A stretch of 62,667 nt of DNA, counting the filler, from Sphacelaria rigidula (taxonomy: Eukaryota), in the NCBI GenBank assembly GCA_964200075.2. It is 11 parts of 11 records of this genome, joined end to end, with 100 filler letters (N's around TTAATTAATTAA, not from the genome) between each part and the next. Parts side by side here need not be neighbours in the genome. Positions count along the whole stretch, not along the records: positions 22,827 to 28,432 come from CAXNAA020025925.1; 10 more parts are not named here. One strand, written 5' to 3'. Position 1 is the first letter of the stretch, and every line of letters starts with the position of its first letter. A program made the translations under genes and the position numbers. The notes below the pieces were generated by a model. The model made no database searches. It was not told where the DNA came from and saw nothing but the letters and a program-made list of their open reading frames with translations. Of this stretch, positions 7,931 to 56,615 are shown in pieces.

Positions 7931-8722
7931 GAAAAGATTAGCTAGATTTATTTCAATTTTGGGAAGCAGCATGGGCGTACTTCTTGTACTGCCGTAGCTG
8001 AACTAGTGTTTTGTCGCGAAGGTGTTCATGGCAACAGCAGCAGCAGCGGCAGCAGCAGCAGCAGCGGCAGCAGTAATATTAGCTTGCATAGCTGTCCGAG
8101 TCAGATGTGAAGTCTCGAGATATGTTGTTTTCCTCACTCTAAGAAATACCGTTTCATGTATGCAATCTTGTGTATTTCTTTGCTCGTACTCGATGACGAA
8201 CGGCTCCTCCTTCCCTCTATCGTTTGCGAAGGCCATCACAAAACATGCCGTGACTTCTGCGCTGACTGATCCCTCTCCTCTGTGCCACCGGCGCGGCGTG
8301 CATGTGCTGTGTGAAACTCACTCGCCGTAGAACCTGTTCGCTACGGCACACTGACAAAAGGAGGCACGCGACAACACCTGCCATAGAGAGGGCATGATCC
8401 ACGGGGACCCCGAAACTCCGGCAGAAATATGGCGTGGAGTATCCCAGCACACATGTATCCCACCCCTTGCTGGTGTACAACCGCTGCTACCACATCAGTA
8501 GACTGCCTGCGAACAGCAGTAGCAGCGTTCACTCGCGTAAATATCGCTGCTACCTGACAAATAGGCCCCTGCATAAGCGGCGCCGGCGCCGGCGGCGTCA
8601 CGGGCGGAGCGGCCACATAATGACTTCTCCTCGAGGAGCACGGCATGCACATTATGTGATCGTCTTTAGTATTCACGAAAGAGCCAAGGGGTTTTCGAGG
8701 AGGCGTGTGTCTTGGGGTAGGG

Positions 8723-8824
8723 AGGGGGGTGTACTCATGATCTTGCATGCATAGTGATATGACCGTTGACCTCGCATCTCTACCAAGCCGGGATGGAGCA
8801 CGCGGGGTTTTCGCCGGACCAGGC
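8723..8824 (-). mobile_element. Poly(C)-tailed retroposon-like element, subfamily 1, with ~15-bp TSD
   Basis: The minus strand reads GCCTGGTCCGGCG...CATGAGTACA-C(n). It is flanked by TGTCTTGGGG(T/C)AGGG at 8708-8722 and 8825-8839 (14/15 identical). Confidence 0.75.
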
Positions 8825-10879
8825 TGTCTTGGGGCAGGGGGCAAGGAGAGTTAAATAGGGAGGGAGCAAGGGGGTTGTGCTGTGGGTATAGAGTAGTGAC
8901 CTTCCGCCGCAACTGCTGCACCGGGTGCGAGCGTAACGAAGGGACGGAGATGAAAGGAACGCTGTTGGATGGACTATTGTTTTGCTATTATACCACTTGG
9001 AATGTTGTGAAAAAAAGATGATCGAGTCAAGGATTGAGAACTTGAGAGGTCTTCGTTGGGAGGGCAAGGCGTGTGTCGTTGGGAAAACGTGGTGGCGGTG
9101 TATGTATCGTGCAGCGCGCAGAAATCTATGCTGCCGGCGCAGGCGAAAACAGGGTGTCGATGAAAACCACACGGCGAGCGCAAGGGGGAAGCTAGTGAGG
9201 TTGTAGGAATATGAGCGGTTGGGGTGGTGAGTCGAGTACATATAGTGTCCATCAACAAGAATGAATAGGGAAACGAGTCCCTCGCGCAGGGGTCACTTCA
9301 GGGAATGCGACAAAAACCAAACGGTGGTTGGAACTTTGGCACCCTCCTGTGAGTAGTAGTACGTATGCGATGAGGAGTGAAGAGCGAGAAACAGAGGCAG
9401 AGGTGGAAAATGGCAATGACAGCGTATCAGGTTTGACACATGACTCATAATATCCTTTGGCGTCGCACAACAGACACCACACGCATGTCCAAGGATCTTC
9501 TCGATTCGTAGTAACGCAGAAGATATGGCTTGATCCCCTGAGACCACGGAGTCGTCCCGAGTATAACGAGTGGTTGAAATGATGAAGAATGGAAGTATGA
9601 AGAATTAAAAAAAAAAAAGTGTATCTTATAAGTCCCGACGACCGAAATGACCTCGAAGCTACCTATCGCCCCCTGTACCACTGAGGGATGGTGTTCCTCA
9701 CCTGATGTAGTCATATAGTCAGTCTTGAGCAATTTCTGTTCACGGTGAAAAGAGTTGCAGCTCACGGGGGGGTCAACGTACTAATAATTGTGGAAGAAGA
9801 CCCATGCGTCATGTAGGAAAGCGGGGGACAAGAGCGTCGACGTAGGCCCCTGGCGTGACAAATAGGCTTCGTTTTTAGTTTTCGTCATTGTATGGCAACA
9901 ATGTGAAACTTTGCCCGGTCTTCCGGCGGGTGCTACAGCTCTAAACTTCACGAGAGCTCTGTCTCAAATCGAGTTGTTCTGGTACAGTAAGTACCCCCAG
10001 GCAGGAAAATGAAACGGTCTCCATTTTTTGCACTGGTTCATGTCTGGCAAGAAGAGAAAATCTCATCTGTTCTGCTCCGGGGTGTTCCAGCTGGCTCCGG
10101 CCTTCATGAGAGCACCGTGACTGTCATGAAAACTGAAATTTCGAACAGTGCTATCATGTCGCACGATAACTCGGGGAGTGGTGTACGGTACTCTTGCCCC
10201 GCGGGCATAACAAAATAATGCTTGAGTTTTGGTTGTGTCTTATTTTCGCCGTGTTTTAAACCGTTCTCATTCTTTGGGACGAAGTCGCGTCTGATATATC
10301 AGGGGAACCATATATTACCGTGCAACTTTCATCTGGGATATCATATCCAGCTGTGATGTCCGTCTGAAATATTGTATCCATGTGCTGCCCATCCGGGATG
10401 ATATCGATGTCCGTTTGGGAATATCAATGTCCATCTGGGGTGCTCACCTGGGGTGTGGATGCCCATTTGGAGTATCTATATCCACATCCCCGATGGTTGC
10501 CTATCTAGGATACGAATATCTATCTGGGATGTCCATCTGGGGTATCCGCACTCGTGATAGACAGGCGATATAGATCTGATATCTCAGATGTGGATGGATG
10601 TCCAAATCCCAGATGATGTCTCCATGTCGGATATCCACATCCCAATGGCGGTTATGCGATAGTGCAAGATCGTGTATTTTGGAATTGCGGAATGGATTAG
10701 CACTCCAGCATCGCGCCAAGTCATGTTTCAACAAAGATTCTCGTGAAAAAACGCTCCTGGATCATACTACAACAGGGGAGGGGGTATTTGGTTGCACGAA
10801 AAAAGAGACTCATAGGTTTGTCAGACGACCTGCCACACTCGCGGTGCGCTTGTATCTGGTTCAAAACGGTGTCAAGCTA

Positions 10880-11012
10880 TATGAGTGATCGTCATTTATC
10901 GATAACGAGCTCGTTCGAACAACCGTTGCTGCTTTCAACGACCATTCGCCTTGAACTTTCGTGCAAGAAGTGGCCCGAATTACCCCCCCCCCCCCACATC
11001 GTAGGATGACTC
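10880..11012 (-). mobile_element. End of a dispersed element starting GAGTCATCCTACGA-G(n). Other copies at 28304-28432 (+) and 39798-39823 (+)
   Basis: The reverse complement matches 28304-28432 (GAGTCATCCTACGA..G-run..GTA.TT.GG..CA.TT.TTGC.CGAAA...GAAAG.AGCAACGGTT.TTCGAAC). The 39798 copy interrupts a LINE reading frame, which fixes the terminus. Confidence 0.6.
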
Positions 11013-11208: not shown

Positions 11209-11283
11209 TGGATGCGTGGTCAATGGTCAAACGACTAAGGCAAGCAACAAATGAGTACGCCCCCCAACCCCCCCCCCCCCCCC
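11209..11283 (+). mobile_element. Poly(C)-tailed retroposon-like element, subfamily 2 (5'-truncated)
   Basis: GGATGCGTGGTCAATGGTCAAACGACTAAGGCAAGCAACAAATGAGTACG-C(n), near-identical to the copies at 22600-22674 and 26785-26849. Confidence 0.7.
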
Positions 11284-17120: not shown

Positions 17121-17267
17121 CGAACACACCACGGCGCTTCGCGCTTGGTAATTGAGTGCGAGCCTGGTTCGGCAAAAACCCGGCGTGCTCCATCCCGGTT
17201 TTGTAGGGTTGCGGGGTCAATGGTCTGATGACCATGGCATGCATGACCATGAGTACACCCCCCCCCC
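17121..17267 (+). mobile_element. Poly(C)-tailed retroposon-like element, subfamily 1 (cut by contig start)
   Basis: Matches 56475-56615 and the reverse complement of 55250-55390. Ends CATGAGTACA-C10. Confidence 0.7.
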
Positions 17268-22358: not shown

Positions 22359-22599
22359 GTGAGGGTCTGAACGTGTGGGTGGTTTGACGACAGTGATTGC
22401 TTGGATCGTTGCTCGACTATTGGATCGCTTGAGTCATCGATACGCAAGTGCAATATCTGTAAGATGAAGACCTTGATGTGCTTCAATTCTTGCTTACTCG
22501 GCCGTCAGATTCCGTCGTCCCTACAGCCGCTTATTTCCCTGCCCGCGGGGTTTGGTGGAGTTTGGTTGGGGCAAAAGCAGCCACCTCCCTTTTTTGTGC

Positions 22600-22674
22600 T
22601 CCGTCTCGAAAGGGATGCGTGCTCAATGGTCGAACGACTAAGGCAAGCAATAAATAAGTACGCCCCCCCCCCCC
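22600..22674 (+). mobile_element. Poly(C)-tailed retroposon-like element, subfamily 2
   Basis: TCTCGAAAGGGATGCGTGCTCAATGGTCGAACGACTAAGGCAAGCAATAAATAAGTACG-C12, with a possible decayed TSD CCCTTT...GTGC on both sides. Confidence 0.7.
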
Positions 22675-23244
22675 TTTCGGGTGCAACTTCTGAAAATCAT
22701 GAAGTCACTTCAATCTAGTGCAAATCNNNNNNNNNNNNNNNNNNNNNNNNNNNNNNNNNNNNNNNNNNNNTTAATTAATTAANNNNNNNNNNNNNNNNNN
22801 NNNNNNNNNNNNNNNNNNNNNNNNNNTGTTTTTCTTAGAGCCGGTGACCACCTTGTTACTAACGGAAAGGCCGAAAAGGGGGGGGAAGAATAAATGGGGG
22901 GGGGGGGGGGGGGTCCCGGCTTTTCCTCATGGAAAGAGCAAGCTAGCTAGTCAGAATCGGAGTACCCGTCCAGGCAGTGGTAATACGATTGCGTAAGAGA
23001 TTCGTAGAAGCTAAGAAGGCCTTCCGTGTACCGTTGCTCCGCAGGCTCTCCTGAGCCAAAATAGTTTTCCCACCCGATAGCGTACTGAGCATGATATTTG
23101 TTTGAATCGGCGATCATTTCCAGACTTTTATCAAGTGAAAATGATGCCGATTCCAGATGTGAACATCCAAGCGGTAAAAGGCGTCAAGTGGTGTGGCTGG
23201 TGGAGTTTGTAAGGATAAGAAATGGTGCCAGCTTTTTGTTGCAT

Positions 23245-23960
23245 ATTCTACGAGAATGCTGCACCGTTTCTTTCTCTGCACGGAGACGTAAAGAACATCG
23301 ATGCGTGGCGTGCCGTAATCGAAGCGTACCCTGCCTGTGCACCCGCGTGTCTCTATCGTTTGAAAAAGTCCTGCGCCCCCCCAAAAGTGAGCTTCCCGCA
23401 CTCCCATTTATAGTGTTCCCAACTTCAGTCAGCCCGTGTATCGGGGAGTCGTGGGGTTTTTGGGTGTGGATGTTTCCAAAAACACATCAGCATTTCGACA
23501 GATTTTTCTTTTATTCAATTAGTGTGCCTCCGTAAATGACTGGTCCACCACGAGACTGCAGCTCTTCTTCCTGCATGGAGACGCAGAGGACACAGATGCG
23601 CTGGCAGCTGTGATACGAGTGCACCATGCCTGTGCATCAACATGTGTCTATCGTTTGAACAGTTTCCGCGCTGAAAAGGAATTGTGAACGTCCCGCACAA
23701 TTCTTGCGGCCATTTGCAAAGTTCACAAGTTCAGAGAACCCGTTGATCGGCGAGGCTTCGGCTTTAGTAGCCTGTGGATGCTTCCAAAACACAGAAGCAG
23801 GTTGACAGGTTTCGTTGTTTTCAATCTGTGTACCTCCGCGTGCATGACTTGTCCACGACGAGGCTGCAGCTCCTCTTGCTGGACAGAGACGCAGAGGACA
23901 CCGATGCGCGGGTTGCTATGATACAAGTGCGATCTTTTTCTGCAACCACGTGTTATTGAG
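23245..23960 (+). repeat. ~300-bp diverged tandem repeat (about 2.5 units), possibly decayed coding repeats
   Basis: GAGACG(T/C)A(A/G)AG(A/G)ACA..GATGCG at ~23283, ~23578 and ~23886. TGTGGATG(T/C)TTCCAAAA at ~23465 and ~23773. Confidence 0.6.
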
Positions 23961-26784
23961 ATCGTCGGGTTGAGCGCGAACCTCTTGGGAGGTGTCGACT
24001 TTGCCTTACCAATGCTCATCGGTGACGCGTGCGATTCGTGCAATTTGTGTTGCGTTTTGTGCTTCATATCCCACTGTAGGAGCCCATGAACTCATTGTCA
24101 CGGCCAGTCATGCGCTCACCACATAAACCGGAAAATGGCTGAAACTTGAGCCTTGAGGGTACGCTCTGAAATGATTTGAAAAGCGAGGCTATAGACCCCT
24201 CTCTGTGAGCGGTCAGGTGACGTCTACAGCCTCCGAATGGGGAGGGCGTAGCCTCAACTCACGGACGTACCATCAAAACGATGCAGGTTTAAAATCGAGT
24301 GAAGACATATCAGAAAAACGGAAGAAAAGATGAGTTGTCTATGGTCGGGAAAAAATGTCGTCGAACAGCCCTGACACTTTTCGGAGACCAACACCCGGCG
24401 ATTCGCACCCCAAACAGTATAAAACGAGGTACCTCTTCGGTCAAGTGAGTACGAGCTAGGCCAGCCGGAAGAAGTGCATACCTCGGGCACACAAATACTT
24501 CTTCAGCTTCCTGAAACGACCCGATGTGAGCACATCGCTGCGAAACCAACGTGTTGATGCACGCTTTGCCACACACAAAAGAAATGAAAACAGTGTACGG
24601 CATAATGTATGACCTCGACAAACACGTGCGCTGCCGAGGGGGACAAGCTAGCAGGGCAAGAGCTCTCTTTTCTACCCTGCTGTCTGTGTTTTCTGCTGCG
24701 GCTAGAGCAACATGCGCTAAGTGGTTCAGAACAAGGCAGTCGCACCGCAGCATGAACACGAGTCGCGTACACCGCGCCAAGGTCGCACGTATTTGGCCAA
24801 CGCCGACAGTCTTGGGTGAAGTCCATTATACCCCATGCCGGTGTGGTTACAGCGTGACAGTACCGTATGTGCACCACAGCACACGGGGTTGGCAAGACGA
24901 GAGTCAGGTGCGAGCAAATATACACTGCAGAAGAACCCTGGTGATAAATACCACATCGCACATGTGCATACACGAGTCGGCACGTTATGGCGCTACACGA
25001 GAAAGCTTCAAACTCACGGATGTTTGATCGGTCGACGCTATACGGAAAGACAGGTATTTCGTGTGCGCGTGCACGGGCGGGTTCGGGTCCGCAGGCAGCG
25101 ACGACACATCTCATGAACTGAAAATGGTCCACCTACGCATGTACACACGCGGTGCCCACCTCGTGAACAAATGATGCAAATCACACACGAGGGAGGTTCA
25201 GCGGTTAGAACCAGAACTGTACGGACGACTCATTCGGCAATTTTGCTCCGTACTGCTTCAACAAGGCCGGAAACGTCGAAACAAACATGCTACTCAGCAC
25301 ACATCAATAACTAGGACATCAGCTCGATGTGCGGCGAAGGTCTCATCGGATGTGACTATAGTTTTTGCGCGGCCTCGCCAGAGGTTTCGTGGATTCTTCC
25401 AGGATGTTGCTGGAGCAAGCCGCCGCGGTGAGACGGCCATAACTCACACGAAGGGACATGAAGGAATCTCGCAATTCGCATCTCAGTCCACACGGCACCA
25501 TACAACACAGAAGCAACACACGGGGGGAATGGTTGATGCGTTGAAGCCGGCGAATATTGTCTGGAAAAGCTCAACAGCCTGTACGCTAGCGTTCAAATAT
25601 GACCTGTGGCCGGGCTTGTGGGGGGCAAGCCTTTCCTCTCATATTGAGATGGGGTGTGTCGGATTGTTGGCTTTCGAAGTTCACCTCGAGTACGTCTACC
25701 TTGTAGATGATGACTTCGCCCGGATCTCCCGGGCATTACTTCATGCGCAACGATCAATCAATCCGTCAGTCAGCTCATGTCTTAGAACTCAACAAGCCGC
25801 GCGCCTGCGGGGGAAAAAAATACGTGGGTGCGCGCACCGCGTGTTCTCCCGGCCTTTTCGGACTTCACATGGCTGGTAATGGTAACTTTGAGGCACCTCG
25901 ACCGGTAATACATCAAACACCGCTTACATTTAGGGGCAAAACCGTCGGCTATTCGCTTCTTATCACCATCCCAACGATTGCACACTCATTTGCCTGTAGT
26001 GACTGTGCTCCTCACATGCACTTCTATACTACCTGTGCTCTTGGTGGCAAAACCTGTGCACTACTGTCTGTAGCAATGCCCTGTGGCTGTCAAGTATCAT
26101 GTATGTTAACAAGATACAGGAGACATTTTCCACGATAGCCCCCGCCCCCCCCAAACCAGCCCACAAGTGTCGAGAAAACAATTATCATACAGCGCCTAAT
26201 GTTTGGGTTCATGCTGCATGAAGCGCCTCATATGGGCGACATCAGCGAGAACTCACCCAAGCGTGGGAATCTTCAGCTGCTCGTTGTGATCTTCTGTTTC
26301 TATTTCGAGTTACGTGAAGGTTTCCCCCCCCCCCAAACCCGGCCCTTTTTTGGGGGGGGGGGGGCTAATCGTAGAAAGTGTCAGAATAGTACGTCTACAC
26401 GGCTCTCAATACACATGCCGTGGTTGATGGGGCACTGCGGACTTGAAACATGTAATTTTCGATCACGCGTGCGTGTTGAGATGGTCTGTGAGTGTAGGCA
26501 TAACAACTTCGTCGCAGCTTGATACGGCACCTGGAAAACGCGACCAATACTCTCGAAGTCACCGAAACATTATTCCTTGAATCTCTATTTCTGTAGTGAT
26601 TTGGGGCACGGTATGTTGTCCATAATTTTACATGCACCAAAATTCGTAAGGTGGTACACTTGTGTACTACGCTTGAGTCATTTCATGTGCAAAGGTGCGC
26701 CTGGAATTCACGCGCCGTGCTTCTGCGCATCATGAAAGTTTGGCATTTTCCATCGGAGAACGAACATTCAGACCTGCGGTGGGG

Positions 26785-26849
26785 GGGGGGCGTACTCATT
26801 TGTTGCTTGCCTTAGTCGTTTGACCATTGACCACGCATCCCTTTCGAGA
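26785..26849 (-). mobile_element. Poly(C)-tailed retroposon-like element, subfamily 2, with perfect 16-bp TSD
   Basis: Flanked by CAGACCTGCGGTGGGG at 26769-26784 and 26850-26865. Confidence 0.85.
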
Positions 26850-27496
26850 CAGACCTGCGGTGGGGCGGAATACCAATTCCTCTCGTCTACCGTGTCCTTC
26901 ATTGGAGTGCGGAGCAACATGTGTGTACTACATACGACGGGAACGCGCCGGGAGGGGTGGGGAACGCTTCACTCTGAGAAGAAAAACGCTCCCTACACTG
27001 AAGAATATGAGTACAGCGCCTTCAATATCGGCGTTTATCCGAGAGCAGGGGTGCTGCTCCTTCGGAGTAAGACTGCAGAGCATGACCACTCCAGACTCCT
27101 AACCGATCGACGGGTCCTGTAACTGTTTCCATCGAGAACAAGCTGTGACGGAAGGGTCGCATGAGACGATATCCTCCAGAGTCCACTTGTAGTCTACTGT
27201 ATCAGGCATCCGGAAAGGAGATGTTACATGAAAATATAACAGTGCCGAGCTAAATACTAAAAGAAGTGAGAGCCATCAGTGGACGATTGGGGCTGGTCCG
27301 TGCAGCCGAGCGAATGCGTGGATGAATTTCATTGATAAAGCAGAGACAGAATGAGCACTCCGAGTGTCCTAGGTGGTGCATGCACAACTCCCGTTGCATA
27401 AATTGACAAGCAAGAATGGGCATGAATATTCAGTAAGACGAGATCGCTTGCGGGTGAAACGCGGATAACGATCCAGTAAGTTCTACACGCACGCAC

Positions 27497-28046
27497 GTAC
27501 TCCAGCGTATCGTTCTTCTCCCCACCTTTCGTTCCATCTCGCCCTGTGCATCGATCACGTAAAGCGTCACGAACGGTGCCACTTCCATCTGTACGTATAT
27601 TCAGGGCAGTGTCGGTGCAAAGCGTTGGCGATACGGTCAGAGCCACGCCCAGAATGAGGGGGGTCACGGGTAGAGTTGATGTTGAGGCGTCGGTTTGGAG
27701 CTTGGCGGTAGGGTTCGAGGGCTACGTTGACGTGCACACACGCGAGTACACGCATCATGGCACCGTTCCACAAAGGGAAAGTTTTCGAACACATCTGGCG
27801 TTGCAGATGGAAACAGTGCACGTGGTTCGAAAGGCTTCAATGCCTTCGCGTTCGAGATATCGCTCGAGTTGCTGCTGGTGCTGCTACTGCTGCTGCTGCC
27901 ACAACTTTCGAAATGCACCGTTGAAAATGACATGACACATTCACAACGACTACCATGTGGCACGTGTGCTGCACAGTCGACAGAAAAGACGTGCTCCAAC
28001 GTGTCCTTCGCCGACCAGCTATCTCGTCCAGCCGACGCTGCGCGAC
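27497..28046 (-). CDS. Possible two internal exons of an unknown gene (28046-27954, 27721-27497)
   Basis: AG/GT-bounded, phase-0, open: VAQRRLDEIAGRRRTRWSTSFLSTVQHTCHM|PSNPTAKLQTDAST...GEKNDTLEY. No recognisable domain. Confidence 0.3.
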
Positions 28047-29552
28047 CTAGATTCTCGCCTCTCCTCTCACAGCGTCAATAAATCATCGAAACGTTTCACA
28101 AACCTTCCAACACCAAGTTCAGAAGCACAGAATCCCACCGACCAAGAAAACGTAACAACAAATTGGAGCGTGGTGCGTATCCACATTGGCCCAGGAAAAC
28201 GTTAGGGTGAAGCTCACTCATCAACGATAACTTACGCACACATAAACATGATACGTATCCCTTCCCACACGCCCCGAGTAAATTGATACAAAGAACGCGT
28301 CAAGAGTCATCCTACGACAGGGGGGGGGGGTATTTTGGGTCATTTGTTGCTCGAAATTTCGAGTCAGATCGCCGCTGAAAGTAGCAACGGTTTTTCGAAC
28401 AAGCTTCTTGTGGATCAATAACGCTCATCCATNNNNNNNNNNNNNNNNNNNNNNNNNNNNNNNNNNNNNNNNNNNNTTAATTAATTAANNNNNNNNNNNN
28501 NNNNNNNNNNNNNNNNNNNNNNNNNNNNNNNNTCTAAAGGGATTTGTGGTCGATTTTACAATTGCTAATGCAAGACATAATTTAGCTAGGCCTTCCCCCC
28601 CCAACTCCACCCCTGAACATTAACTTTATGAAGGTTTCAAGGGTTGGAGGAATACTGATTGATTTGAAAAATGCTCTCGTACGGTGTAACTGACTCGTAA
28701 CGCATTTTTCTGCTCCTTCGTTTTCTTGAACGAGTGTTTCAGTTTTGCTTTTGTTGGGTACGTCTGTCATGCGACCACGGCTGGACCCATGGGTGGTCAG
28801 TTCAAGTGCATCAATCAATCATATCAACCAACGCATACAAATATCAATATTTCGGCTTTTGTCGAGCGTTGCATCCCAGGCACGTAAAATAGCGCAAAAC
28901 TGGCATGAAAACTTTTCTTTACCCGCGGTCTATTTTTACCTTTTTCGAGCAATCAGACCCTCGGAAAACAGAGATGTGTTGCTTCGAACGAGCGATAAGT
29001 CGTCCGACCTTTGGAAGACCCGGGTCGTTTGATATTGTGTTGACAGTGTACGTTGTATACGACCCCCTACTGAATGCTACTCCTGTTAAGTTGTTCTGAG
29101 CATCACCCCAGGGTTATACCGTAAGGATGTGCGTCATGGCACACGGGTGGGGATGGATCCCTCCATCCTATATGTCAACAACGGGGAGGATCCATTTGGA
29201 AGATATCCCCGACGCCGTTACAAGAAATGATAAATCAACTTCCTCACTCTCCTCATTGTCGAGATGTCAAGCGGCAAAATAGGTGACACCTCTGCGCGAT
29301 TGCGCGCTTTTTTACCGTACCCTTGAACATTTGGTGATGACATACATTTCGTCCGTTCGCATGCGTTGCAACATCCACTTATACTCGTCAGTGAAAAAAA
29401 ATCGACAAGAGTAGACAATCACACATGCTTACTCGCGCAAGCGATTGTACTGTGCTTGTATTTGCGCTTTGCGCCTCACGCAGTGAGGGAACCTAAAACG
29501 AACCACCACCCACCCACGACAAATCCTTGCTGTACTCTTGTGATACATGCAG

Positions 29553-31951: not shown

Positions 31952-33632
31952 TTTGCAGCCAACAAAGGTGTAAGATATCTGCTTTGTGGTTTCTTTTTGT
32001 GTGTGTACTGTGTATTGAGATAGGTTGGGTTGGCTGGTAGTTGCAGGTCCTTTAACTAGGTAAAATGGTTTTTGTCAATGTTGCGGAGTGTTTCATGTAT
32101 GTACACGGGTATTTTGTCCGTTCTCACGTGTGTTTGTCGTGTTTGAAAGATGAGGAGACGCGTTATTTGTTTTGTTTTTCTTTCAGCGGTTTCGTTCTGC
32201 CTCGCGTCGTGGCGACTGCTCCAAGGGTGTAGCGACCGAGAACTGCGGCGAGAAGCCTCCGGTGTCGATCTTCCATCGCAACCTGTATATCTCGCGTCGA
32301 TATTCTCTTTGGCCTTTGCTCTTAGGGGGTCTTGTAGTAAAGGGGGGGGGGGGGGGGGGGGTTTTTGTTTTTTTCACCACCACCNNNNNNNNNNTCTTCG
32401 CTTTCTCGGGGGTTTGTGGTTGTTGGTGGTGTGTGTGTGGGGGGGTGGGGGGGGGGTGGGGGGGGGGGGGGGGGTTATTAGTTCATTTACACGACATCCG
32501 TACGCCGTGTAGTGTCCCGGGAAAATAGTCTGCGCGTTGACTTGTCTACCGTTGGTGGTATATGACTATATGACTCCATCCTAGTGCGCCGTGTGAACTC
32601 AAGCGCTATTTTTTTCGCCGTATACATCAGTGCGCTTCCGTTGAGGCTTCATTGGTTCCGTTGCAAAGCGTTCACCGCAGATTTTGTCTAGCGTGCTTGC
32701 GGTCGAAACGGGTAATACGCAGCAGCAGGGTTCACGGCGCTTTAAAGTGGTCAATGTAAAACCCCCTGGTCGCGTGTTATCATGTTCACGATTGCGACGT
32801 GCTCGTCTTTTTCTTGTTTCTTAGATGCGAATTGAAGGATGAATCGAATAATCGTTCGTACGAGTAGAGGATCTTGAATATCATGACCGTGATCAAAATC
32901 GACGATACGCTGGGCCTGCGAAGAACGGTAGGGTTTTTTCATTGGCGCTATTTTGTTGTGTACAGGGAAGGGGTGATGCAAACGGAAGTGAGGGAATGTT
33001 GGAGGACATTTTCTTTTACTTGTTTTTTTTTCATATTTGTTTTCGGCTCACCATCGCACGTAATACTCGGTGTGACTTGTGTCTGATCGCGATGTTTTGA
33101 GACTGCAGCTCGCCGGTCGAGGCCACAGTTGCATAAAAATGCGTAGTATAGCTTTTCATGCGGGGCATGCACTCAGCCAAAAAACGGTCACTGGGTGTGT
33201 CGGGGGGGGTGGGGGTGTTGCTGGGGCTTCTGATAGATGGCGTTTAGCAAGTAGGGAAATAACTGCTTCGATGTTGCCTTGATGATTGAGGGAGGGTGTA
33301 AGCTACGTACTTGCACCTTGTGTTTTTTTTTCGTACCATGATGATCTCGAGGGTGCTACACTTGTTCATTAAATCACGTCCGCCACCAAGATGACTCATT
33401 TTTTGGTAGTGAAAATGTTAGCCTTCACGTCCCCCTGTCGTGTCTCCTCGGCATGTTTACTCGTTCGAGATGAAGATATCTTGTTTCAAGTGGGAATACG
33501 TCAACAGATTCGTCAGGTGAACCTACACGTTCTTGTCTCTCTGATTTTACAGGGAATCCGAAGCACCCAGTGGTTACAATTGCTGATTCTACAAAAGATG
33601 GAACATCCCTCAGTCCCCCTCCCCCCCAGAAG

Positions 33633-33711
33633 CCCTGGCGTGCTCGGTCCCGGCCTTGTAGGCATGCAAGATCAAGAGTCTTATGACTGTGGCATGCATG
33701 ATCATGAGTTC

Positions 33712-33750
<39 letters not shown>
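33633..33750 (+). mobile_element. Poly(C)-tailed retroposon-like element, subfamily 1 (5'-truncated, ~38-nt C tail)
   Basis: GGCGTGCTCGGTCCCGGC...GTCTTATGAC...CATGAGTTCA-C(n), with CCCCTCCCCC-like sequence on both flanks (possible TSD). Confidence 0.7.
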
Positions 33751-35689: not shown

Positions 35690-36650
35690 TTCTAAACATG
35701 GTTGGTAGACGATGGAATACGGGGTTTTGTGAAGTATGTGGATACATGAGCGAGGTATACCCTATCGTCCCGCACCCTTCGACGCCTTCCCAGGGGTTTC
35801 AGATGAAGCACAGGTGTGGACATACACACGTATCCAACGTGTGGGATCTCTATGCAGCGAAAGCTGTTGAGAGTTATTAATCCTTTAGCCCATGTACACA
35901 TGGACTGGGATGCAAAAGGGTGAATACCTTTCAACAACTTTTTCTGCGTGTCGGACCCCATGCGATGGTAACGATGGAGTATGCGGGATTTGCCCAGAAG
36001 CTGATGCTGCTCGCAATAAAGCTCTTTTCCCCCACTTTCCGGATGAATGGGAAGGCTTAGTAAAGATTTCTTTCGAGCTTCTTCTGCTGTTCAACTTCCA
36101 AATCTGCTACTGTACATGGGATTTGCGCAGCAGAGGAAGCTGTTCGAAATAGATCCTTTTTTCGCTCATTTCAAAAATGGGCGAAAAAAGGATCGATCTT
36201 GAACAGCTTCTTCTGCTGTTCAAAGTATATCATTCTTTTTTGCCGAAATAAATTAGGCGAGAAAAGGATCTGTTGTGAATAGCTTGTCGTGCTGTCAAAA
36301 ATAGAATCCTTCTTGCTCGATTCAAATCGGTTGAAGAGGAATTTACGTCGGACAGGAGGATGAGCTATTGAAAATATATAAATTTACAGATTTTGTACCA
36401 AAATATTTCGAATTTTCGGCGAAAAAAACCCGTCAGGGTTGTTTACCAAAACACTAACATATGACTGTGCAGGGCTTTGCCGACAAGCCTACACAGGGCT
36501 GTAAACCCAACCCTGGGGAAAACCCTATCAAAACGGTACGAGAGGTACAGGTTTGGATTTTTACTGCCAGGGTTTTTTCGCAAAGACTGTGGAGGACCCT
36601 GTACGGACTCTGCACAGTGCGCCCCACAGGGTGCTTTCTGTCCACGGGTG
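35690..36650 (+). mobile_element. Non-autonomous CAC...GTG DNA transposon family, partial copy (others at 46590-47467 and 60098-61435)
   Basis: About 900 bp of similarity to 46590-47467 and to the reverse complement of 60098-60950. Ends CTGTCCACGGGTG. Confidence 0.75.
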
Positions 36651-39385: not shown

Positions 39386-39689
39386 AAGTGCACAATCCTG
39401 GAGAGAACGCGAGCAAAGAATGTGAGAGGATGGAGACGAAGAAGGTGTCGGCATGAAAGGAAATTATGGAAATTATGCATAGCCAATGGAACAAAAGACC
39501 TAAGACGTAGCCTGCGGGTAACTGGAGGAAAGGATAAGTAGGAAAAACTAAGTGCCCGGAAGGAATAGGGGAGGGAAAACAGTTGCCCATAGAATACAGA
39601 CAAAGGTCAAACAGAGAGGGGAAGAAGGTCAAGAAAGGGAAAACAGGAGTGAAAGCAAGAAAAAAGGAGAGCGGATAACGACTCGATAA

Positions 39690-39797
39690 ATGATTCTGAG
39701 AATAGGATTGTGGAACGTGCGTGGTTTCGCCACACAGACGAGCTCAAAATAAAAGAGATAGCCCAACAAGTAAGTAACCGCGACCTAGATATAGTGG
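39690..39797 (+). mobile_element. LINE ORF2 N-terminus (APE endonuclease remnant), interrupted by the GAGTCATCCTACGA element
   Basis: Translates MILRIGLWNVRGF, then after a frameshift IKEIAQQVSNRDLDIV. This matches the WNVRG...DIV(G)xQE start of APE domains. Confidence 0.65.
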
Positions 39798-40221
39798 AGT
39801 CATCCTACGATAGGGGGGGGGGGGCGTTCTCATGTGTTGCTCGCNNNNNNNNNNNNNNNNNNNNNNNNNNNNNNNNNNNNNNNNNNNNTTAATTAATTAA
39901 NNNNNNNNNNNNNNNNNNNNNNNNNNNNNNNNNNNNNNNNNNNNTTTTTGGTGATTCCCCCATCCCCCCCCCCCCCCCCCTTTAATGACCGTCTTCTTTC
40001 GTTCTTTCGCGCTTGTAGGACTAACGCTTTTCGCCCTCTGGCGGTGAGGATGGACACCATTTTTCACATGTCTGGATGTGTTGGTTCCCCCAAGCGCCGC
40101 CATTTTTAACAGAAGTTTTTTTCCCGTGAGATTGTGAACTCTCCTTCGAAGTTATCCACCAGTTGGGTGACTCCCCACTATTTTTCACGAATCTGATGTC
40201 ACGACTTAACTTTTAGTCGCT

Positions 40222-40704: not shown

Positions 40705-42358
40705 GGCGACAAAGAAAAAGATGCCGCGAACAGCCGGGCACGTGGAGGGGTCTCGCCGGGCAGCTGAGGCAGTAGAGGCGTGCCGAGCGCTGGGGGTCGA
40801 AGTGAGTAAAGGGCGACAATTTTTTGGTTGACGTAATAATAACAGTTGTAGCCCCTCCATGGAGTCGTGATTCTTTTTTGTTTTGCTTGGCCGTCGCACT
40901 TAGTGGGATCCTCACCTTGTCGGCCGTTGCGGTTTCCTCGGCTATGGTATTCATCACCAAAGAACGTTCAGCAATCGGGGAGGTAACCCGTTTTATTCTG
41001 TGGCTGCGCGATGACACCCGAGGCGTATCAAGAGTCATTTCTGGAGTGTTTTGCATTACAAACATACAGAGCGATGCGTCGGTAAAGTGCTTGCATCGAT
41101 TCGGAACCTCGATTTCACACTCGCAGTCACGGGGTCATGCACCACTTCGGCCCCGCCCCTCGAAACACTGATATTACACACAAACCTGGGTTTGCCAGCC
41201 GTGCGTTTGTGTACCACGTGCGCAGGCTATTTTTTATGTTCATGACTGCCCTCCTCTGACGATGTCCCCGGATGCATATCCCATCGCCCGTTACACGCTC
41301 CCCTTTTGCCGGGTGTCAACAGTTCGTGACGTTGTATGCCTTCTCTACGGAAAACTGGAACAGGCCGGAGGCAGAAGTGTCCTTCTTAATGAACGTGAGA
41401 AGTACTGCGGTGTATTCGTCGTACTTTTTAGACAAGTGCTGAACCACAACCGAGCCGCAGTCGGCACTGAAGTTGAACACTCGCAGTCGACTTTCGATGT
41501 GAACATTTTTTGCCTTGTTGTGTACTGTCTCCCCTTGTCCCGTCCTTGTCCTGTCCAGTTGAGAACATAGTGCCTTGGACACCAAACGTGAAATATAAAA
41601 GTGACTCCGAGAGATTAGGCAATGGCTGTCCGTTCAGTGTTACGCAGCACTCTCCGACTTTTTATCTCGTCTCCCACCGTCACAGGTCGCCGTGATTCAT
41701 CTTGTACAGACGCTCGTGTATAATGAAACAAGAAGATTAGTGTAGTAAGAAAAACGGCCCATCGTGCTATCGGCCATTTCGTTGACCTCTCTACATTCCT
41801 CCAACCTTGCCTCGTGTGGGTGCGCCCGTCTTCTGGTGCCTGAAGCTGATGGAGAAAACTCTGCTAGATCAGAGGGATGACCTTCGCCGAGGACGAATAC
41901 GACTCGCGGTCATCGGTGAGTTGCATCGCTTGCCGCCGCGGCTTCGTGTTCTCTTGCAAGAAATGCAGACGGAGTCGTTCAGCGATTCGGTGACGACGAC
42001 AGCGGCGGCGGCGAACGGAGGAGGTAGTATTGATGTCAGTGCTTCGGGGGGCGGGGATACTCCGACCAGCACACGCCGAGATCGTGCGGATGTGCATGCG
42101 CATCCAGCGGATGAGGTCGTTACCCCTGCACGCCTGGGAAACCGTGGCGGATGGACCACTTGCAAGGGCGATAGAGATAGTAGCGATAGCGGTGGTGGTA
42201 GCAGGGTCCTTGTAGATGGAGGAGGGGCAAAAGAAGCAAGAGGAAGGGACGGAACGTCGTCGGGTGGGGCGTTGATACCAGAGGGCGCATCTTCTCGAAC
42301 AAGCGGGGCTAAGACTTCGGAGTCCGAATCAGCAGGCGACCACTTCCAAAACGGCAGC

Positions 42359-42390
<32 letters not shown>

Positions 42391-51399: not shown

Positions 51400-53930
51400 C
51401 AGAGCGCAAGGAGCATACCACCAATATACCCAAACGTGATGGGGAGAAGAAGCGAAAGAGGCTTAAGAGTACGGAGAGAGGCACACGTAAAATATCTACC
51501 GAATAAAACTACAGTAGGATGGAAGGAGCATGCTACAGCTCGAAAGGGGGTAAAAACGATGGTAGAGAAGAAAAATAAGGGAATATGGAACTTTGTAGTG
51601 AATAAAACAAAGGAAGGTTTCGATGGCGGGATGAAACAAATGTGGGTAGGGATAAAAGGGATAATGGGGAAACCCGGCAAGGGGAATAGACAAGGGGAAA
51701 GCCACACTATGGGCACGGAACGGTAAAACGGTCAGTAGTTCGAAGGGGAAGGGAAAAGTACTACAGTAGTAGAGCACTACCGTAAAATATTAACATAAAA
51801 AACTAACGAAGATTCGACACGGAATCCGAGAAAAATGAAAACGCATGGGCAGAGGCCAATGCAGAGGCATCAAAGTGGTAGGACAGTGGTTCCAGGGAAC
51901 TGCAGAGAGAGAGTTCACAAGTAAAGGAGTGTGTGGCTGAACGCTAGAACAGAAGGGAAGCAGAGACAAAGACGAAATGATGGATGAAGTTCTCCAGTAC
52001 GGGGGAGAGGGAATTGCCATCATGCTTATGCCGTAAAATTAAAGATGTGAAGAAACGAGTACGCACCCAAGAGGTGAAGAGAAGGAGTAGGAATAAACCT
52101 CTTCAAGAAAGGAGACAAGGCTGACCCAGGGAATTATTGAGGGATAACGCTACTGAGCACCGTAGGGAAAACGTTATGTAAGAATCTGAACGGTAAAGTG
52201 GGAACGATGCTGGAAAGGCGGGAAAAAAGTCAGCGAGAGGAAAACAAGTTTTAGATTCAACCGTAGTTGCGTAGACCATGCGCACACATTGGGTAAATTG
52301 TTCAAGGTAGGAAAGATGACGGGCTGACAACGTGCTGTTTCTTTCTAGATGCACGAAAGACGCATGACAGTATGGAGAAATGATCTCAAGGAAACGTTGT
52401 GGGAAACTGGGATCGTGAGAGGAAAATTGTGGAGAATGGCGAAGAAGATGAGAGACTATGCCAAAAGTGCTATGGTGCTCGATGGGGAAATATCGGAATG
52501 TGTTGACATTTTACAAGGAGTTGCACAAGCACACCCACTTTATTCAAAGTATTAATCGATGACCTGATAACAGCAATAGAAGCAGCAAAGCAAGGAGTCA
52601 AGATGGGGGAAGGAAGATACGATATCGGGATTGATGTTCGCGGATAATTTCGTGGGGATTTCAGGAACAGTAGAAGGATTGCAGAAGCAACTAGAGAAGG
52701 CACCAGGATACACTAGGGAATGGAGAGTGACAGCGGAGGTAAACAAGTGCGCGGAAGATGTATGCAAGAGGACAAGGGAAACCCGGGGGAGTTCAAATGG
52801 AAGTGGGGAGAAGAGGAACTGCCGATCGTAGACCAGTATACATACCTTGGCGTAAAGGTTGGAAGAAATAACTATTCTTGGGATGCACACAAAAATAACG
52901 TGATAGGAAAGAGTAATCCACAGATAGGCAAGATAAACGTGATCCTACGAGACGCGCATAGATACTAGGATTAAGATATGTACACTGATGAACGTGATTG
53001 TACCAAAGCTGGAATGTGCGGGAGACGTATTGGGGGGAACGTGAAGCTGGTGAAGAAGCTGGAAACATTACAGATAGCAGCAGCTAAGAAAATACTCGGA
53101 TGTTAAAAAAACGACGGGTAATACAGCATTGAGAGAAGAGTTGGGATTATATGCACTTGAAACAGAGACATGGGAAAGCTGAAGTGGCAATAGAGCGTAA
53201 GGTGCATGCCAAAAGAGAGATTGCCAGCTGCAGTTGATGGAGCCGAATGGAAGACAGCGACGAAGGGGTAGGCTGGAATAAGGTGGGATAGAGTAGTCGA
53301 GAAAGTGTGGAAGGAGATAGGAGGAGACCAAGACGAGACAATGTCCATGGGTGAATGTGGCGGACGGGTACAAGACGGAAGTAATGGACATGATCGAAAT
53401 AAGGGGAAAATAAGCGCTAAGACGGAAAGTAGACGAGGAAGAGCACCTGGAGATATACGACAGGCTGAGAGAGGAGATAGGGATGAAAACATGTCCGCAT
53501 GACCCAACGGACTCGGCGGAAAGGATGAAATTGCGATCTCGGTTAGGAGACCTGGGCCTGCCAGAAAGAAGGAAGGGGTACAAAATATCAGCATTCGAGT
53601 GAAGGAGGAAGTAGATGCACAGAATTGCCCCTGTGGCAAAGCAAAAGAGAGTGGAACTCATGTAGTGGCAGAATGTGAACTACACAAGGAAGAACGGGAA
53701 GTGTTAGAGGGGGACATATGGAAAGTAAACGAAGGTATCATGAAACCGTTTGATACATTAGACAGTGGCGAGGCAACGGTGGCTGTACTAGAAGATAGAT
53801 GGTGGCCACAGACGGCGAATCAGAAAGGGGACAAGATATGTAATTTTGTTTGTGTAAGATGTGGAAAAAACATAATGAGAGCCGAAAGGTTCGAGGTGAC
53901 TCTATTAGGAGTAGGAGTGGCGCTTGGGGC
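51400..53930 (+). mobile_element. Decayed non-LTR retrotransposon (LINE) ORF2: reverse transcriptase and C-terminal CCHC
   Basis: Fragmented motifs include LFKKGDKADPGNY*GITLLST, ILQGVAQ, LMFADNFVGIS (YADD box), YTYLG and CPCGKAKESGTHVVAEC. There are many stops and frameshifts, and the sense strand is purine-rich. Confidence 0.9.
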
Positions 53931-54347
53931 GCCGAAAATGAAACAAAAATGGTGTTTGGGCCCAGGACGATTCGTTCATCCTACCCCTGGCATTATACAT
54001 GACCTCAATGAGGTCACTTCATATGGAAACCACAAATACGAGCGGGGCCAGGCAAGAGTTCCTCTTCGCGGTTGGCAGGTGACGCGCCGCTTTATAATAG
54101 GAGCTGAGCGCCGACATTTTGAACATTTTCAAAGCAGCAAGGAGAAAAATAAAACAGCAAGTTGAAGCGATTTGGAACTCCTGTAAAAGAAGGATAATGC
54201 CGTAACTCCATGAAAAAACGGAAATCTGTTGCTACTTCGAGCACGACTTTTTAGCTTGCGTGCAGAGAATTTCTTGGGCTCAAAAATCAAATTGTGCTGT
54301 GCGCCCTACTTCTTTTGTGTGACGCCGCTGCGCCCCGCTTGTCTATG

Positions 54348-55236: not shown

Positions 55237-55249
55237 GTTAGACTATGGG

Positions 55250-55819
55250 GGGGTGTACTCATGATCATGCATGCCAGAGTCATAAGATCATTGGCCTCGC
55301 ATCCCCTCAAAGCCGAGACGGGGCACGCCGGGTTGTCGCCGGACCAGGCTCACATTTAATCACCGAGTGCGAAGTGCCGTGATGTGTTCGGCGAGTCGCA
55401 TGAGGAGTGAGTTGCATCGTGCTGAGATTGTTCGGCCCGAAGCCTATTGATTATCTTGCATTCAGAGGACAGCTTACAACGAGTTGCTTTACTTTCTGGT
55501 ATCGCCACTTCCCGAGACAGCCACGGCTCATACACTGCCTCATGGGTGTCTCACAATTCAAACACGTCGTAGTACGATCATCCCCATTGTACGGAGTTGA
55601 GGTTCTCCCACGCCGCACAACTTGATCTAGCTCGACTACCATCATGGTTTCCGCAGAAAAAACGCAAGCGCGCAAAGCAAAAACGGTAACCTGGTTTCCT
55701 AGCTTACGCAGTGAGTGGCGTGTTTCGTAGCGTTATCGCCAACCGACGCCAACCCCATCGAGGATCCGCCCCTGCAAAGCCGGGACGGAGCACGCCGGGT
55801 TCTCGCCGGACCAGGCTGA
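55250..55819 (-). mobile_element. Longest poly(C)-tailed element copy (subfamily 1, ~570 bp) with 10-bp TSD and internal direct repeat
   Basis: AGACTATGGG flanks it at 55240-55249 and 55820-55829. A ~45-bp block is repeated at 55310-55350 and 55777-55817. Confidence 0.8.
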
Positions 55820-56424: not shown

Positions 56425-56615
56425 TGGGCCGCACAATCTTAGCAGGATGCAGCTCATCCCTCATGCAACTCGCCGAGCAAATTACGGCGCTTCGCGCTTG
56501 GTGATTGAATGCGAGCCTGGTCCGGCACAAACCCGGCGTGCTCCGTCCTGGCTTTACGGGGATGCGAGTTCAATGGTCTTGTGACTAAGGCATGCAAGGA
56601 CATGAGTATACCCAT
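56425..56615 (+). mobile_element. Poly(C)-tailed element subfamily 1, 5'-truncated, decayed C tail
   Basis: Matches the reverse complement of 55250-55440 over ~190 bp. Ends CATGAGTATACCCATCCCAC. Confidence 0.7.

What the first reader, a model, noticed from the sequence alone, without database searches (positions are those of the whole stretch)
26769..26865. Poly(C)-tailed, G-tract-targeting retroposon family (9 copies in 6 unrelated contigs)
Seen: short elements end ...ATGAGTAC(A/G)-C(n) at 8723(-), 11209(+), 17121(+), 22600(+), 26785(-), 33633(+), 39813(-), 55250(-) and 56425(+). They have variable 5' truncation and variable tail length (7 to ~38 C). Three have clear TSDs of different length: 16 bp perfect here, 15 bp at 8708/8825 and 10 bp at 55240/55820. 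In element orientation every TSD starts with CCC. Established: variable TSD, 5' truncation and a homopolymer tail matching the target are the signature of target-primed reverse transcription, normally poly(A) annealing to a T-tract. Inference: here a poly(C) RNA tail primes on a nicked G-tract, a C/G mirror of the L1/Alu system. The closest precedent I recall is (C)n-associated Penelope-like (Chlamys) elements of green algae, so the autonomous partner could be a PLE or a LINE; none is visible in this window.
Basis: partly seen in the sequence, partly recalled or inferred. Interest (0 to 1): 0.85.

Follow-up and report, generated by a model that had tools for sequence, protein, structure and literature searches.

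The report
C-tailed LINE copies in brown alga
The short repeats ending in a run of C are truncated copies and small hitch-hikers of a jumping gene (a LINE retrotransposon) of brown algae whose C-run tail and C-rich insertion sites are already catalogued in Ectocarpus, so the finding is real but largely known.

Summary
Observation confirmed. All 9 copies are present, in 6 of the window's 11 joined pieces. They end in ATGAGTAC(A/G) plus a C run of 3-38. Three have TSDs of 16/16, 10/10 and 14/15 bp, each starting with CCC.

(1) An autonomous partner exists and is visible in the window. It is a LINE with an apurinic-type endonuclease and a reverse transcriptase, not a Penelope-like element. Its ORF stops at the TGA of "ATGAGTAC", 5 nt before the C run. 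Degraded copies lie at 51437-53924 and 39405-39797.

(2) It is not new. A host gene and the LINE's only named relatives are brown-algal. The curated Ectocarpus TE table lists RTE-X LINEs with "(C)n 3'" and "C-rich" TSDs. It also lists non-autonomous partners of 607 bp and 188 bp sharing the 3' 60-100 bp. The window holds a 188-nt unit and a 570-nt unit of that design.

Public runs show a very high-copy family with long C tails and head-to-tail units. Priming by a C-tailed RNA on a G tract remains an inference. Verdict: new member of a known kind, modest interest.

The parts
26785..26849 (-). Family-A copy: the last 59 nt of the LINE (the end of its ORF, the TGA stop and GTACG) plus 6 extra C. 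It is 5'-truncated at LINE position ~5090.
   Evidence: 96% identity to L076 over 77 nt; other genomic copies run on into LINE sequence beyond 26850.
26769..26784 (.). Target-site duplication, tail-side copy (16/16). In element orientation it starts CCCC.
   Evidence: read directly.
26850..26865 (.). Target-site duplication, 5'-side copy (16/16).
   Evidence: read directly.
22596..22674 (+). Family-A copy, about 67 nt of the LINE 3' end plus C12. The end of the LINE ORF is still readable (…APSRKGCV.NG.TKASNK).
11210..11283 (+). Family-A copy, 50 nt of the LINE 3' end plus the tail C6-AA-C16.
   Evidence: 95% identity to L076.
39813..39844 (-). Family-A 3' end (20 nt, cut by the end of the piece) plus C12. 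The tail abuts the motif TCGTAGGATGACT and an oppositely oriented LINE 5' fragment.
8723..8825 (-). Family-B copy of about 100 nt, starting at GCCTGG, with a C-rich tail. It is flanked by a 14/15 TSD at 8708-8722 and 8826-8840.
17121..17267 (+). Family-B copy plus C10. Its 5' end is cut by the start of the piece.
33627..33750 (+). Family-B copy of about 86 nt plus C38. The flanks are C-rich and there is no clean TSD.
55250..55819 (-). 570-nt non-autonomous element. It has a 49-nt box at the 5' end that repeats an internal box, about 320 nt of unique sequence, then the full 188-nt family-B unit and 4 extra C. It is flanked by a 10/10 TSD at 55240-55249 and 55820-55829. Its design is like RTEX-N1_Ec32 (607 bp).
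   Evidence: comparison.
56426..56613 (+). Full-length family-B unit, 188 nt, with a decayed tail. It is the same length as RTEX-N2_Ec32.
   Evidence: comparison.
51437..53924 (+). Degraded copy of the autonomous LINE, covering the reverse transcriptase and the C-terminal CCHC region, with many stops and frameshifts. It lacks the last ~75 nt and the tail. Its start is cut by the piece boundary.
   Evidence: tblastn with P0003, E 1e-146. blastn, 75% identity to L076 positions 2604-5090.
39405..39797 (+). LINE 5' fragment, covering the N-terminal region up to the start of the endonuclease.
   Evidence: E 2e-10; 68% identity over 418 nt.
10886..10995 (+). Diverged LINE-type 3' end ('X') plus C13, followed directly by the motif TCGTAGGATGACT.
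28320..28427 (-). Second 'X' 3' end (…CAACAAATGACCCAAAATA) plus C11, followed directly by the same motif.

Best explanation
The repeats are products of one lineage of APE-type LINE retrotransposons of brown algae. By its features this lineage matches the RTE-X elements curated in Ectocarpus.

The LINE has a single ORF of about 1360-1382 aa with an endonuclease, a reverse transcriptase and a CCHC region. The ORF runs almost to the 3' end: the stop codon is the TGA of ATGAGTAC, then GTACG, then (C)n.

Family A copies are LINE copies truncated to the last 50-79 nt. Family B is a non-autonomous partner, with a 188-nt unit and a 570-nt relative, that keeps only the LINE's last ~75 nt.

Proposed mechanism (inferred):
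1. The endonuclease nicks the bottom strand at a G tract.
2. The exposed G-ending 3'-OH pairs with the templated C run at the 3' end of the RNA.
3. Reverse transcription starts there, and slippage makes the tail length vary.
4. Second-strand cleavage 10-16 bp downstream yields a TSD that begins with C.

Because every tail is itself a C/G tract, older tails would become targets. That would give head-to-tail units and nested copies, and would seed the genome with long C/G homopolymers.
For: Shown:
- Three marine metagenome contigs and one contig of a 'MAG' bin carry the family-A end plus C8, C11, CC-T-C7 and C13. Directly upstream is a conserved ORF.
- L076 holds an open frame of 1382 codons, 88% identical to P0003. 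The TGA stop lies 5 nt before the C run.
- P0003 and P0005 carry Exo_endo_phos + RVT_1.
- 3 of 3 clean TSDs differ in length and start with CCC. Each tail has 4-6 more C than the empty site.
- In the 15 nt after the first C run, C makes up 81/195 = 0.42, against 0.246 in the window.
- In public runs X1, X3, X4 and X5, the summed contig depth on the element's bin is 7.07 million, against about 65 on unique flanks in X1.
- Loose ends on the tail side are poly-G of 20 nt or more, followed by unlike flanks.
- Hundreds of loose ends share a tail interrupted by the same single base (…GGGGA). This points to templated, inherited tails.
- 'Goes back 70' joints, meaning head-to-tail units, occur in 51, 14, 40 and 4 contigs of the four runs.
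- C/G runs of 10 or more: 20 observed against 0.16 expected.

Literature: Ectocarpus RTEX-1/2 are noted as 'single EN-RT ORF; (C)n 3'' with 'C-rich' TSD. RTEX-N1 is 607 bp and 'can be present in tandem'; RTEX-N2 is 188 bp. The only named relatives of the LINE and the best named hits of a host gene are brown algae.
Against: - No RNA evidence was obtained. No RNA holder was listed, so a C run at the RNA's 3' end and its pairing to a G tract are inferred.
- Only 3 of 9 window copies give a clean TSD.
- No TSD of 8 nt or more was found for the intact L076 copy. That contig may not reach the element's 5' end.
- RNAalifold on 12 copies gave a small hairpin (13 pairs) with 0 compensatory changes. A 3' recognition structure is therefore unproven.
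- RTE-X membership was not tested by phylogeny or by alignment to the Ectocarpus consensus sequences. Those FASTA supplements could not be read.
- More distant named relatives, at about 25% identity, carry generic 'jockey' names.
- Summed contig depth is not a copy number. Joints through long G runs in k-mer-based contigs may be mis-joined.
Confidence: 0.85

Rival explanations
1. A Penelope-like element of the Chlamys type mobilises the repeats. The C runs are pre-existing (C)n microsatellites into which it prefers to insert.
For: Chlamys elements show an insertion bias for (CA)n and (C)n (PMC8557442, passage seen). Ectocarpus has 3 Chlamys families.
Against: The ORF that ends in the repeat has an APE endonuclease N-terminal to the RT. 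No other Pfam family, so no GIY-YIG, was hit. The Ectocarpus Chlamys-1 is annotated with an (A)n 3' end, not (C)n. The three reconstructed empty sites hold only 3-5 C, and the tails add 4-6 more.
Confidence: 0.02
2. The same LINE is responsible, but the C run is not in the RNA. The reverse transcriptase adds untemplated G to the nicked bottom strand before it engages an RNA that ends in …GUACG.
For: Tail length varies from 3 to 38 nt in the window. Untemplated addition at the start of target-primed synthesis is known for R2 (recalled, not checked here).
Against: Source copies with an intact ORF already carry C8-C13. Hundreds of contigs share the same interrupted tail: a single T after 2-4 C, seen as …GGGGA loose ends at 26782-26784. 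The L054 copy has CC-T-C7. Sharing of this kind is expected from templated inheritance, not from random addition.
Confidence: 0.1
3. The repeat is the end of a DNA transposon, or the homopolymers are assembly or sequencing artefacts.
For: Homopolymer lengths are error-prone in sequencing. The window contains many C/G runs that are not attached to a recognised element.
Against: TSD length is not fixed (10, 15 and 16 bp) and there is no paired inverted terminus. The repeat is the coding 3' end of an RT gene. The element with its runs recurs in four runs from two studies and in four unrelated public contigs.
Confidence: 0.01

Closest known systems
RTEX-1_Ec32 and RTEX-2_Ec32, RTE-X LINEs of Ectocarpus (PMC12477816, supplementary file 1, read)
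   Same: Single EN-RT ORF, a (C)n 3' end, C-rich TSDs, brown-algal host and thousands of copies. The only named protein relatives of the LINE found here are brown-algal: Ectocarpus at 59-67% identity and Sphacelaria.
   Different: This is a different host species; a host gene is 82-84% identical to its Ectocarpus and Hapterophycus homologues. Sequence identity to the Ec32 consensus sequences and the RT phylogeny were not tested. The cited paper only tabulates the tail and the TSD; in the passages seen it does not discuss the mechanism.
RTEX-N1_Ec32 (607/604 bp) and RTEX-N2_Ec32 (188 bp), non-autonomous partners
   Same: They share only the 3' 60-100 bp with the LINE, have C-rich TSDs and a head of unknown origin, and 'can be present in tandem'. 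The window has a 188-nt unit (56426-56613) and a 570-nt unit (55250-55819) built the same way. No Rfam family was hit at E<=1.
   Different: The match rests on length and design only; the sequences could not be compared.
L1/Alu (poly(A) tail, T-tract nick; recalled textbook knowledge)
   Same: An autonomous element with a parasitic partner, a homopolymer tail that merges with a TSD starting with the same base, 5' truncation, and insertion into older tails.
   Different: Poly(A) is added after transcription and lets L1 act on any polyadenylated RNA. A C run must be templated. Here the partners also keep about 75 nt of LINE 3' sequence.
Stringent-type LINE/SINE pairs with 3' microsatellite tails, such as UnaL2/UnaSINE1 and CR1 (recalled, not checked here)
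   Same: A shared 3' end between LINE and partner, a short templated repeat at the very end, and variable repeat number consistent with slippage.
   Different: The repeat unit here is a single nucleotide. A recognition hairpin is not demonstrated (0 compensatory pairs). The shared 3' module lies inside the ORF.
Chlamys Penelope-like elements (PMC8557442, passages seen)
   Same: Association with (C)n tracts.
   Different: They have a GIY-YIG endonuclease and pseudo-LTRs. The element here has an APE endonuclease.

Membership tests
APE-type non-LTR retrotransposon (LINE) | ORF with an apurinic/apyrimidinic-type endonuclease N-terminal to a reverse transcriptase | tested here: met
   In P0003, PF03372 and PF14529 cover residues 170-414 and PF00078 covers 740-989. 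P0005 is alike. L076 has an open frame of 1382 codons.
APE-type non-LTR retrotransposon (LINE) | Insertions with variable-length TSDs, 5' truncation and a 3' tail | tested here: met
   TSDs of 16, 10 and 14/15 bp. Family-A copies start at LINE positions 5086, 5090 and 5103. Tails are 3-38 C.
RTE-X clade (as curated in Ectocarpus) | RT-domain phylogeny with RTE-X reference elements | not testable with these tools
   No Repbase or reference RT set is available. The Ec32 consensus FASTA supplements could not be read.
RTE-X clade (as curated in Ectocarpus) | Single EN-RT ORF, (C)n 3' end, C-rich TSD | tested here: met
   compared with the table rows read.
RTE-X clade (as curated in Ectocarpus) | Close protein relatives in Ectocarpus | tested here: met
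   P0161 at 59% identity, P0007 at 67% (on the C-terminal part) and P0175 at 51%, all named Ectocarpus sp.. It was not shown that these proteins are the RTEX-1/2 ORFs.
RTEX-N1 / RTEX-N2 non-autonomous elements | Unit of about 600 bp or 188 bp that shares only the 3' 60-100 bp with the LINE | tested here: met
   The 188-nt unit is at 56426-56613 and the 570-nt unit at 55250-55819. Both match the LINE only over the last 50-77 nt. Sequence identity to the Ec32 families was not tested.
Penelope-like element (Chlamys) | GIY-YIG endonuclease joined to the RT; pseudo-LTRs | tested here: not met
   Pfam at E<=0.01 lists only APE and RVT_1 for P0003 and P0005.
SINE in the strict sense (pol III head) | Head derived from tRNA, 5S or 7SL | tested here: not met
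   No Rfam match at the gathering score in the whole window, and none at E<=1 in 55180-56700. A degenerate or unknown head is not excluded.
L1-type poly(A)-dependent retroposition | Poly(A) tail and an A-starting TSD | tested here: not met
   None of the 13 copies examined has an A run after the element.

The most novel reading that the evidence does not exclude
In this brown alga the (C)n-tailed LINE may be self-targeting. Its own tails would be the preferred nick sites. This would produce head-to-tail arrays of 60-80-nt stubs at very high copy number. It would also make the element the main source of the genome's long C/G homopolymers (20 runs of 10 nt or more in 62 kb, against 0.16 expected). 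In this reading, priming works by C:G pairing between a templated RNA C run and a nicked G tract, with the recognition module lying inside the last 60-75 coding nucleotides. The unexplained 13-nt motif TCGTAGGATGACT, which follows a C run in 3 of 3 window occurrences and in high-depth contigs, would mark either a hot target or the fixed 5' end of a further partner family.
Probability: 0.4. Interest if true: 0.5.

Novelty: new member of a known kind. Interest (0 to 1): 0.3.

Why it matters
The finding shows how one LINE lineage can spread homopolymer C/G tracts through a brown-algal genome. Such tracts hamper sequencing and assembly. (From general knowledge, they can also form G-quadruplex and i-motif structures.)

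It also offers a natural test of how far base-pairing between the RNA tail and the nicked target decides where a LINE integrates. For annotation, it explains the many short "C-tailed" repeats and names their source.

As a discovery it is limited. The tail, the C-rich TSDs and the partner families have been tabulated for Ectocarpus since 2025.

Tried and rejected
- No whole genome is held for the window, and the records behind L012 are not held. A genome-wide census of tails and TSDs was therefore not possible.
- Rfam found no family in the window at the gathering score and none at E<=1 in 55180-56700. A hammerhead or tRNA-like head that I had considered from the sequence was not found.
- RNAalifold on 12 copies gave 13 pairs with 0 compensatory changes. 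The structure is neither shown nor excluded. A single-sequence fold call failed on length and was not repeated.
- The metagenome scan with a 19-mer gave 74 loci. Only 3 (L012, L020, L054) carry the element; the other 71 are chance matches.
- The viral-contig scan gave 0 matches.
- Empty site: among the 15 joints shown (169 more not shown), none skips the element at 26785-26849. Contigs of X1, X3 and X4 cross its 5' junction (records 7, 14, 23). No polymorphism was seen, but this does not show fixation.
- No RNA holder was listed among the 10 runs, so expression and the RNA's 3' end were not examined.
- No TSD of 8 nt or more was found for the intact L076 copy.
- Literature searches for 'poly C tail' + retrotransposon gave 0 papers. 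Searches for poly-C, polyC and C-rich tail with non-LTR, and for brown algae with homopolymer, gave nothing relevant in the listings. These searches cannot match 'poly(C)' written with brackets.
- Earlier findings of this scan held nothing on this genome or this sequence. The word search returned only unrelated retroposons.
- The idea that TCGTAGGATGACT is simply the antisense of the LINE's endonuclease region at its native G6 run (L076rc 1691-1696) fits the 39797-39812 copy. It does not explain why two other occurrences keep only about 20-45 nt of it. This is left open.
Full report
**What the window is.** The 62,667-base window is not one locus. It is 11 pieces of about 5606 bp joined by N44-TTAATTAATTAA-N44 spacers. 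G+C is about 50%. A cis-prenyltransferase gene fragment at 41807-42949 (Pfam PF01255) has brown algae as its best named relatives: Ectocarpus spp. at 84% and Hapterophycus at 82%. The next tier, at 65% or less, is bacterial. The host is therefore a brown alga. No whole genome is held for it.

**Check of the observation.** The pattern ATGAGTACRCCCCC with up to 2 mismatches occurs 10 times, against 0.62 expected; 0 of 100 shuffles reached 10. Eight of the 10 matches belong to the family and two (27007, 52055) are chance. The nine copies lie in 6 of the 11 pieces.

They fall into two subfamilies:
- A: 11251, 22654, 26786, 39820.
- B: 8725, 17249, 33704, 55249, 56426.
The two subfamilies are alignable over the last ~75 nt.

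The first C runs measure 6, 6 (+AA+C16), 10, 12, 10, 38, 12, 7 and 3 nt.

Three TSDs are clear by direct reading:
- 26769-26784 / 26850-26865, 16/16.
- 55240-55249 / 55820-55829, 10/10.
- 8708-8722 / 8826-8840, 14/15.
In element orientation each begins with CCC(C). The reconstructed empty sites hold only 3-5 C, and the 3' junctions carry 4-6 more. The run therefore belongs at least partly to the element. The other six copies gave no clean TSD. Two are cut by piece ends, and two have only C-rich, imperfect candidates.

**What it is.** A scan of metagenome contigs with a 19-mer shared by A and B returned 74 loci. Three of them (L012, L020, L054, all marine) carry the family-A end followed by C8, C11 and CC-T-C7. 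The 600 nt upstream are conserved among the three and form an open reading frame. It ends …NGAPSRKGCVVNGQMTKASNK, and its TGA stop is the TGA of "ATGAGTAC". The LINE's 3' untranslated region is thus just GTACG plus (C)n.

Protein searches with this C-terminus found full-length proteins: P0003 (1360 aa) and P0005 (1328 aa). Both have an apurinic-type endonuclease (PF03372/PF14529) and a reverse transcriptase (PF00078), followed by a Cys-x-Cys…His…Cys region. The C-terminal domain has 2087 representative relatives at E<=0.001.

An exact 22-mer scan of genome contigs found one contig, in a bin labelled as an uncultured bacterium, and it was fetched whole (L076, 5259 bp). It carries an uninterrupted frame of 1382 codons, 88% identical to P0003. 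It ends …AAATGAGTACG-C13.

Family A is therefore the extreme 3' end of an APE-type LINE. The window copies start at LINE positions 5086, 5090 and 5103 of L076 and are 94-96% identical to it.

- A degraded copy at 51437-53924: tblastn E 1e-146 with many stops and frameshifts; 75% DNA identity to L076 positions 2604-5090.
- A 5' fragment at 39405-39797.

**Family B** matches the LINE only over its last 50-77 nt. Two copies share the same 5' end (GGGCCG…), which defines a 188-nt unit at 56426-56613. A 570-nt element at 55250-55819, flanked by the perfect 10-bp TSD, ends in this unit. No Rfam family was hit, at the gathering score in the whole window or at E<=1 in 55180-56700. The origin of the head is unknown.

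**Evidence from public runs.** Five of the 10 listed runs, from two studies, hold the 25800-27800 stretch. Four carry the same coded organism label and one is labelled algae metagenome. None is on record as RNA. Contigs of X1, X3, X4 and X5 were laid on piece 22827-28432 at 90% likeness or more:
- Unique parts have summed word depth of about 65 in X1, while the bin holding the element has 7.07 million. The tool warns that this is not a copy number, but 78,361 contigs were laid in X1.
- On the tail side (before 26781) the loose-end consensus is poly-G of 20 nt or more, followed by unlike flanks (agreement about 0.4).
- Several hundred loose ends at 26782-26784 share the same single-base interruption (…GGGGA).
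- On the 5' side (behind 26850) the loose ends continue into LINE sequence. This confirms that the copy at 26785-26849 is truncated.
- Joints that 'go back 70' (26850 to 26781) occur in 51, 14, 40 and 4 contigs of the four runs. These are head-to-tail units. One caveat applies: paths through long G runs in k-mer contigs can be mis-joined.
- Contigs of X1, X3 and X4 cross the element's 5' junction. No empty-site joint is among the 15 joints shown.

**Target preference.**
- All three clean TSDs start with a C run.
- The 15 nt after the first C run are 42% C (81/195), against 24.6% in the window.
- Head-to-tail units are what insertion into older tails would give.
- C/G runs of 10 nt or more are 20 in the window, against 0.16 expected. 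By my reading of the flanks in the list, 8 of the 20 follow a recognisable LINE-type 3' end.

**Mechanism.**
- Shown: a LINE with an APE endonuclease and an RT; a 3' end that is coding sequence plus 5 nt plus (C)n; variable TSDs that start with C; 5' truncation; partner elements that share the 3' module; very high copy number; tails inherited with their interruptions.
- Inferred: the endonuclease nicks the bottom strand at a G tract; the G-ending 3'-OH pairs with the templated C run of the RNA; reverse transcription starts there with slippage.

A C run cannot come from polyadenylation. The system therefore resembles microsatellite-tailed 'stringent' LINE/SINE pairs (recalled) more than L1/Alu, although its footprint mirrors L1/Alu.

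A conserved small hairpin (GGUC-NNNN-GACU within a UGC…GCA stem) is predicted. It has 0 compensatory changes among 12 sequences, so a recognition structure is unproven.

**Comparison with what is known.** But the ORF here has no GIY-YIG domain.

The decisive comparison is with the curated TE table of Ectocarpus (PMC12477816, supplementary file 1, part 1 read; passages of the main text):
- RTEX-1a_Ec32: 'single EN-RT ORF; (C)n 3'', TSD 'C-rich', 5867 bp.
- RTEX-2_Ec32: '(C)n termini/TSD'.
- RTEX-N1_Ec32: 607 bp, non-autonomous, '60 bp 3' end 83% RTEX-1/RTEX-2', 'can be present in tandem'.
- RTEX-N2_Ec32: 188 bp, 'could be SINE', C-rich TSD.

The main text calls RTEX-N1 the most abundant family in that genome. 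In the passages seen it does not discuss the C tail or its mechanism. Saccharina japonica also has an RTEX-1 element (PMC4421812, passages).

The only named relatives of the LINE found here are from Ectocarpus (59-67% identity) and Sphacelaria. The match in design is close: a single EN-RT ORF, a (C)n tail, C-rich TSDs, a 188-nt partner, a roughly 600-nt partner and tandem units. However, membership of RTE-X was not tested by phylogeny or by alignment, because the consensus FASTA supplements could not be read.

**Unexplained.** The 13-mer TCGTAGGATGACT occurs exactly three times in the window, at 10999, 28305 and 39798. Each time it directly follows the C run of a LINE-type 3' end. High-depth contigs in the runs place it between a C run and a truncated family-A unit (table 5c).

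At 39797-39812 it continues into an oppositely oriented LINE 5' fragment. It lies next to the place where the intact LINE has a native G6 run (L076rc 1691-1696). That suggests recurrent insertion into that G run. The other two occurrences keep only about 20-45 nt of it. A fixed 5' end of another partner family is therefore equally possible.

**Verdict.** The partner is a LINE that is visible in the window. The kind of element, including its C tail and C-rich TSDs, is already catalogued in a related brown alga. This is a new member of a known kind. Interest is modest, and lies mainly in the untested priming mechanism and in the element's role in seeding homopolymers.

Noticed in passing
window 1-5607: The whole first piece is a tandem array. 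Self-matches of 70-90% identity occur at many offsets, for example 488-5607 against 1-5120 at 84%. It is a satellite-like repeat unrelated to the finding.
   Followed up: no
window 26324-26364: A C11 run and a G13 run face each other across AAACCCGGCCCTTTTTT. The bin holding them has summed contig depth of 485,000 against about 65 on unique flanks in run X1. This is another very high-copy unit with homopolymer ends.
   Followed up: no
window 10999-11011, 28305-28317, 39798-39810: The exact 13-mer TCGTAGGATGACT occurs three times, always directly after the C run of a LINE-type 3' end. It is also seen in high-depth contigs. Whether it is a hot target inside the LINE or the 5' end of a further partner family is unresolved.
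   Followed up: partly
window 10886-10982 and 28331-28427: A third, diverged LINE-type 3' end ('X', ending …CAACAAATGACCCAAAATA before the C run). The two copies are 77% alike.
   Followed up: partly
window 53925-54000: The degraded LINE copy loses similarity to the intact LINE about 75 nt before its 3' end, close to where the short family-A copies begin (L076 position ~5090). No tail follows.
   Followed up: no
L076 (whole contig, 5259 bp): A contig binned into a metagenome-assembled 'uncultured bacterium' genome is an intact eukaryotic LINE. It is probably a mis-binned algal contig. By eye, a segment upstream of its ORF (about 455-520 in element orientation) resembles an inverted copy of the element's own 3' end. 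This was not tested.
   Followed up: no
window 35805-36417, 46587-47467, 60098-60965: Another dispersed repeat family, 78-89% identical between three pieces and partly palindromic (for example 60334-60413). It was not characterised.
   Followed up: no
window 41807-42949: A cis-prenyltransferase (PF01255) gene fragment. Its best named relatives are brown-algal proteins at 82-84% identity. It was used only to place the host.
   Followed up: partly
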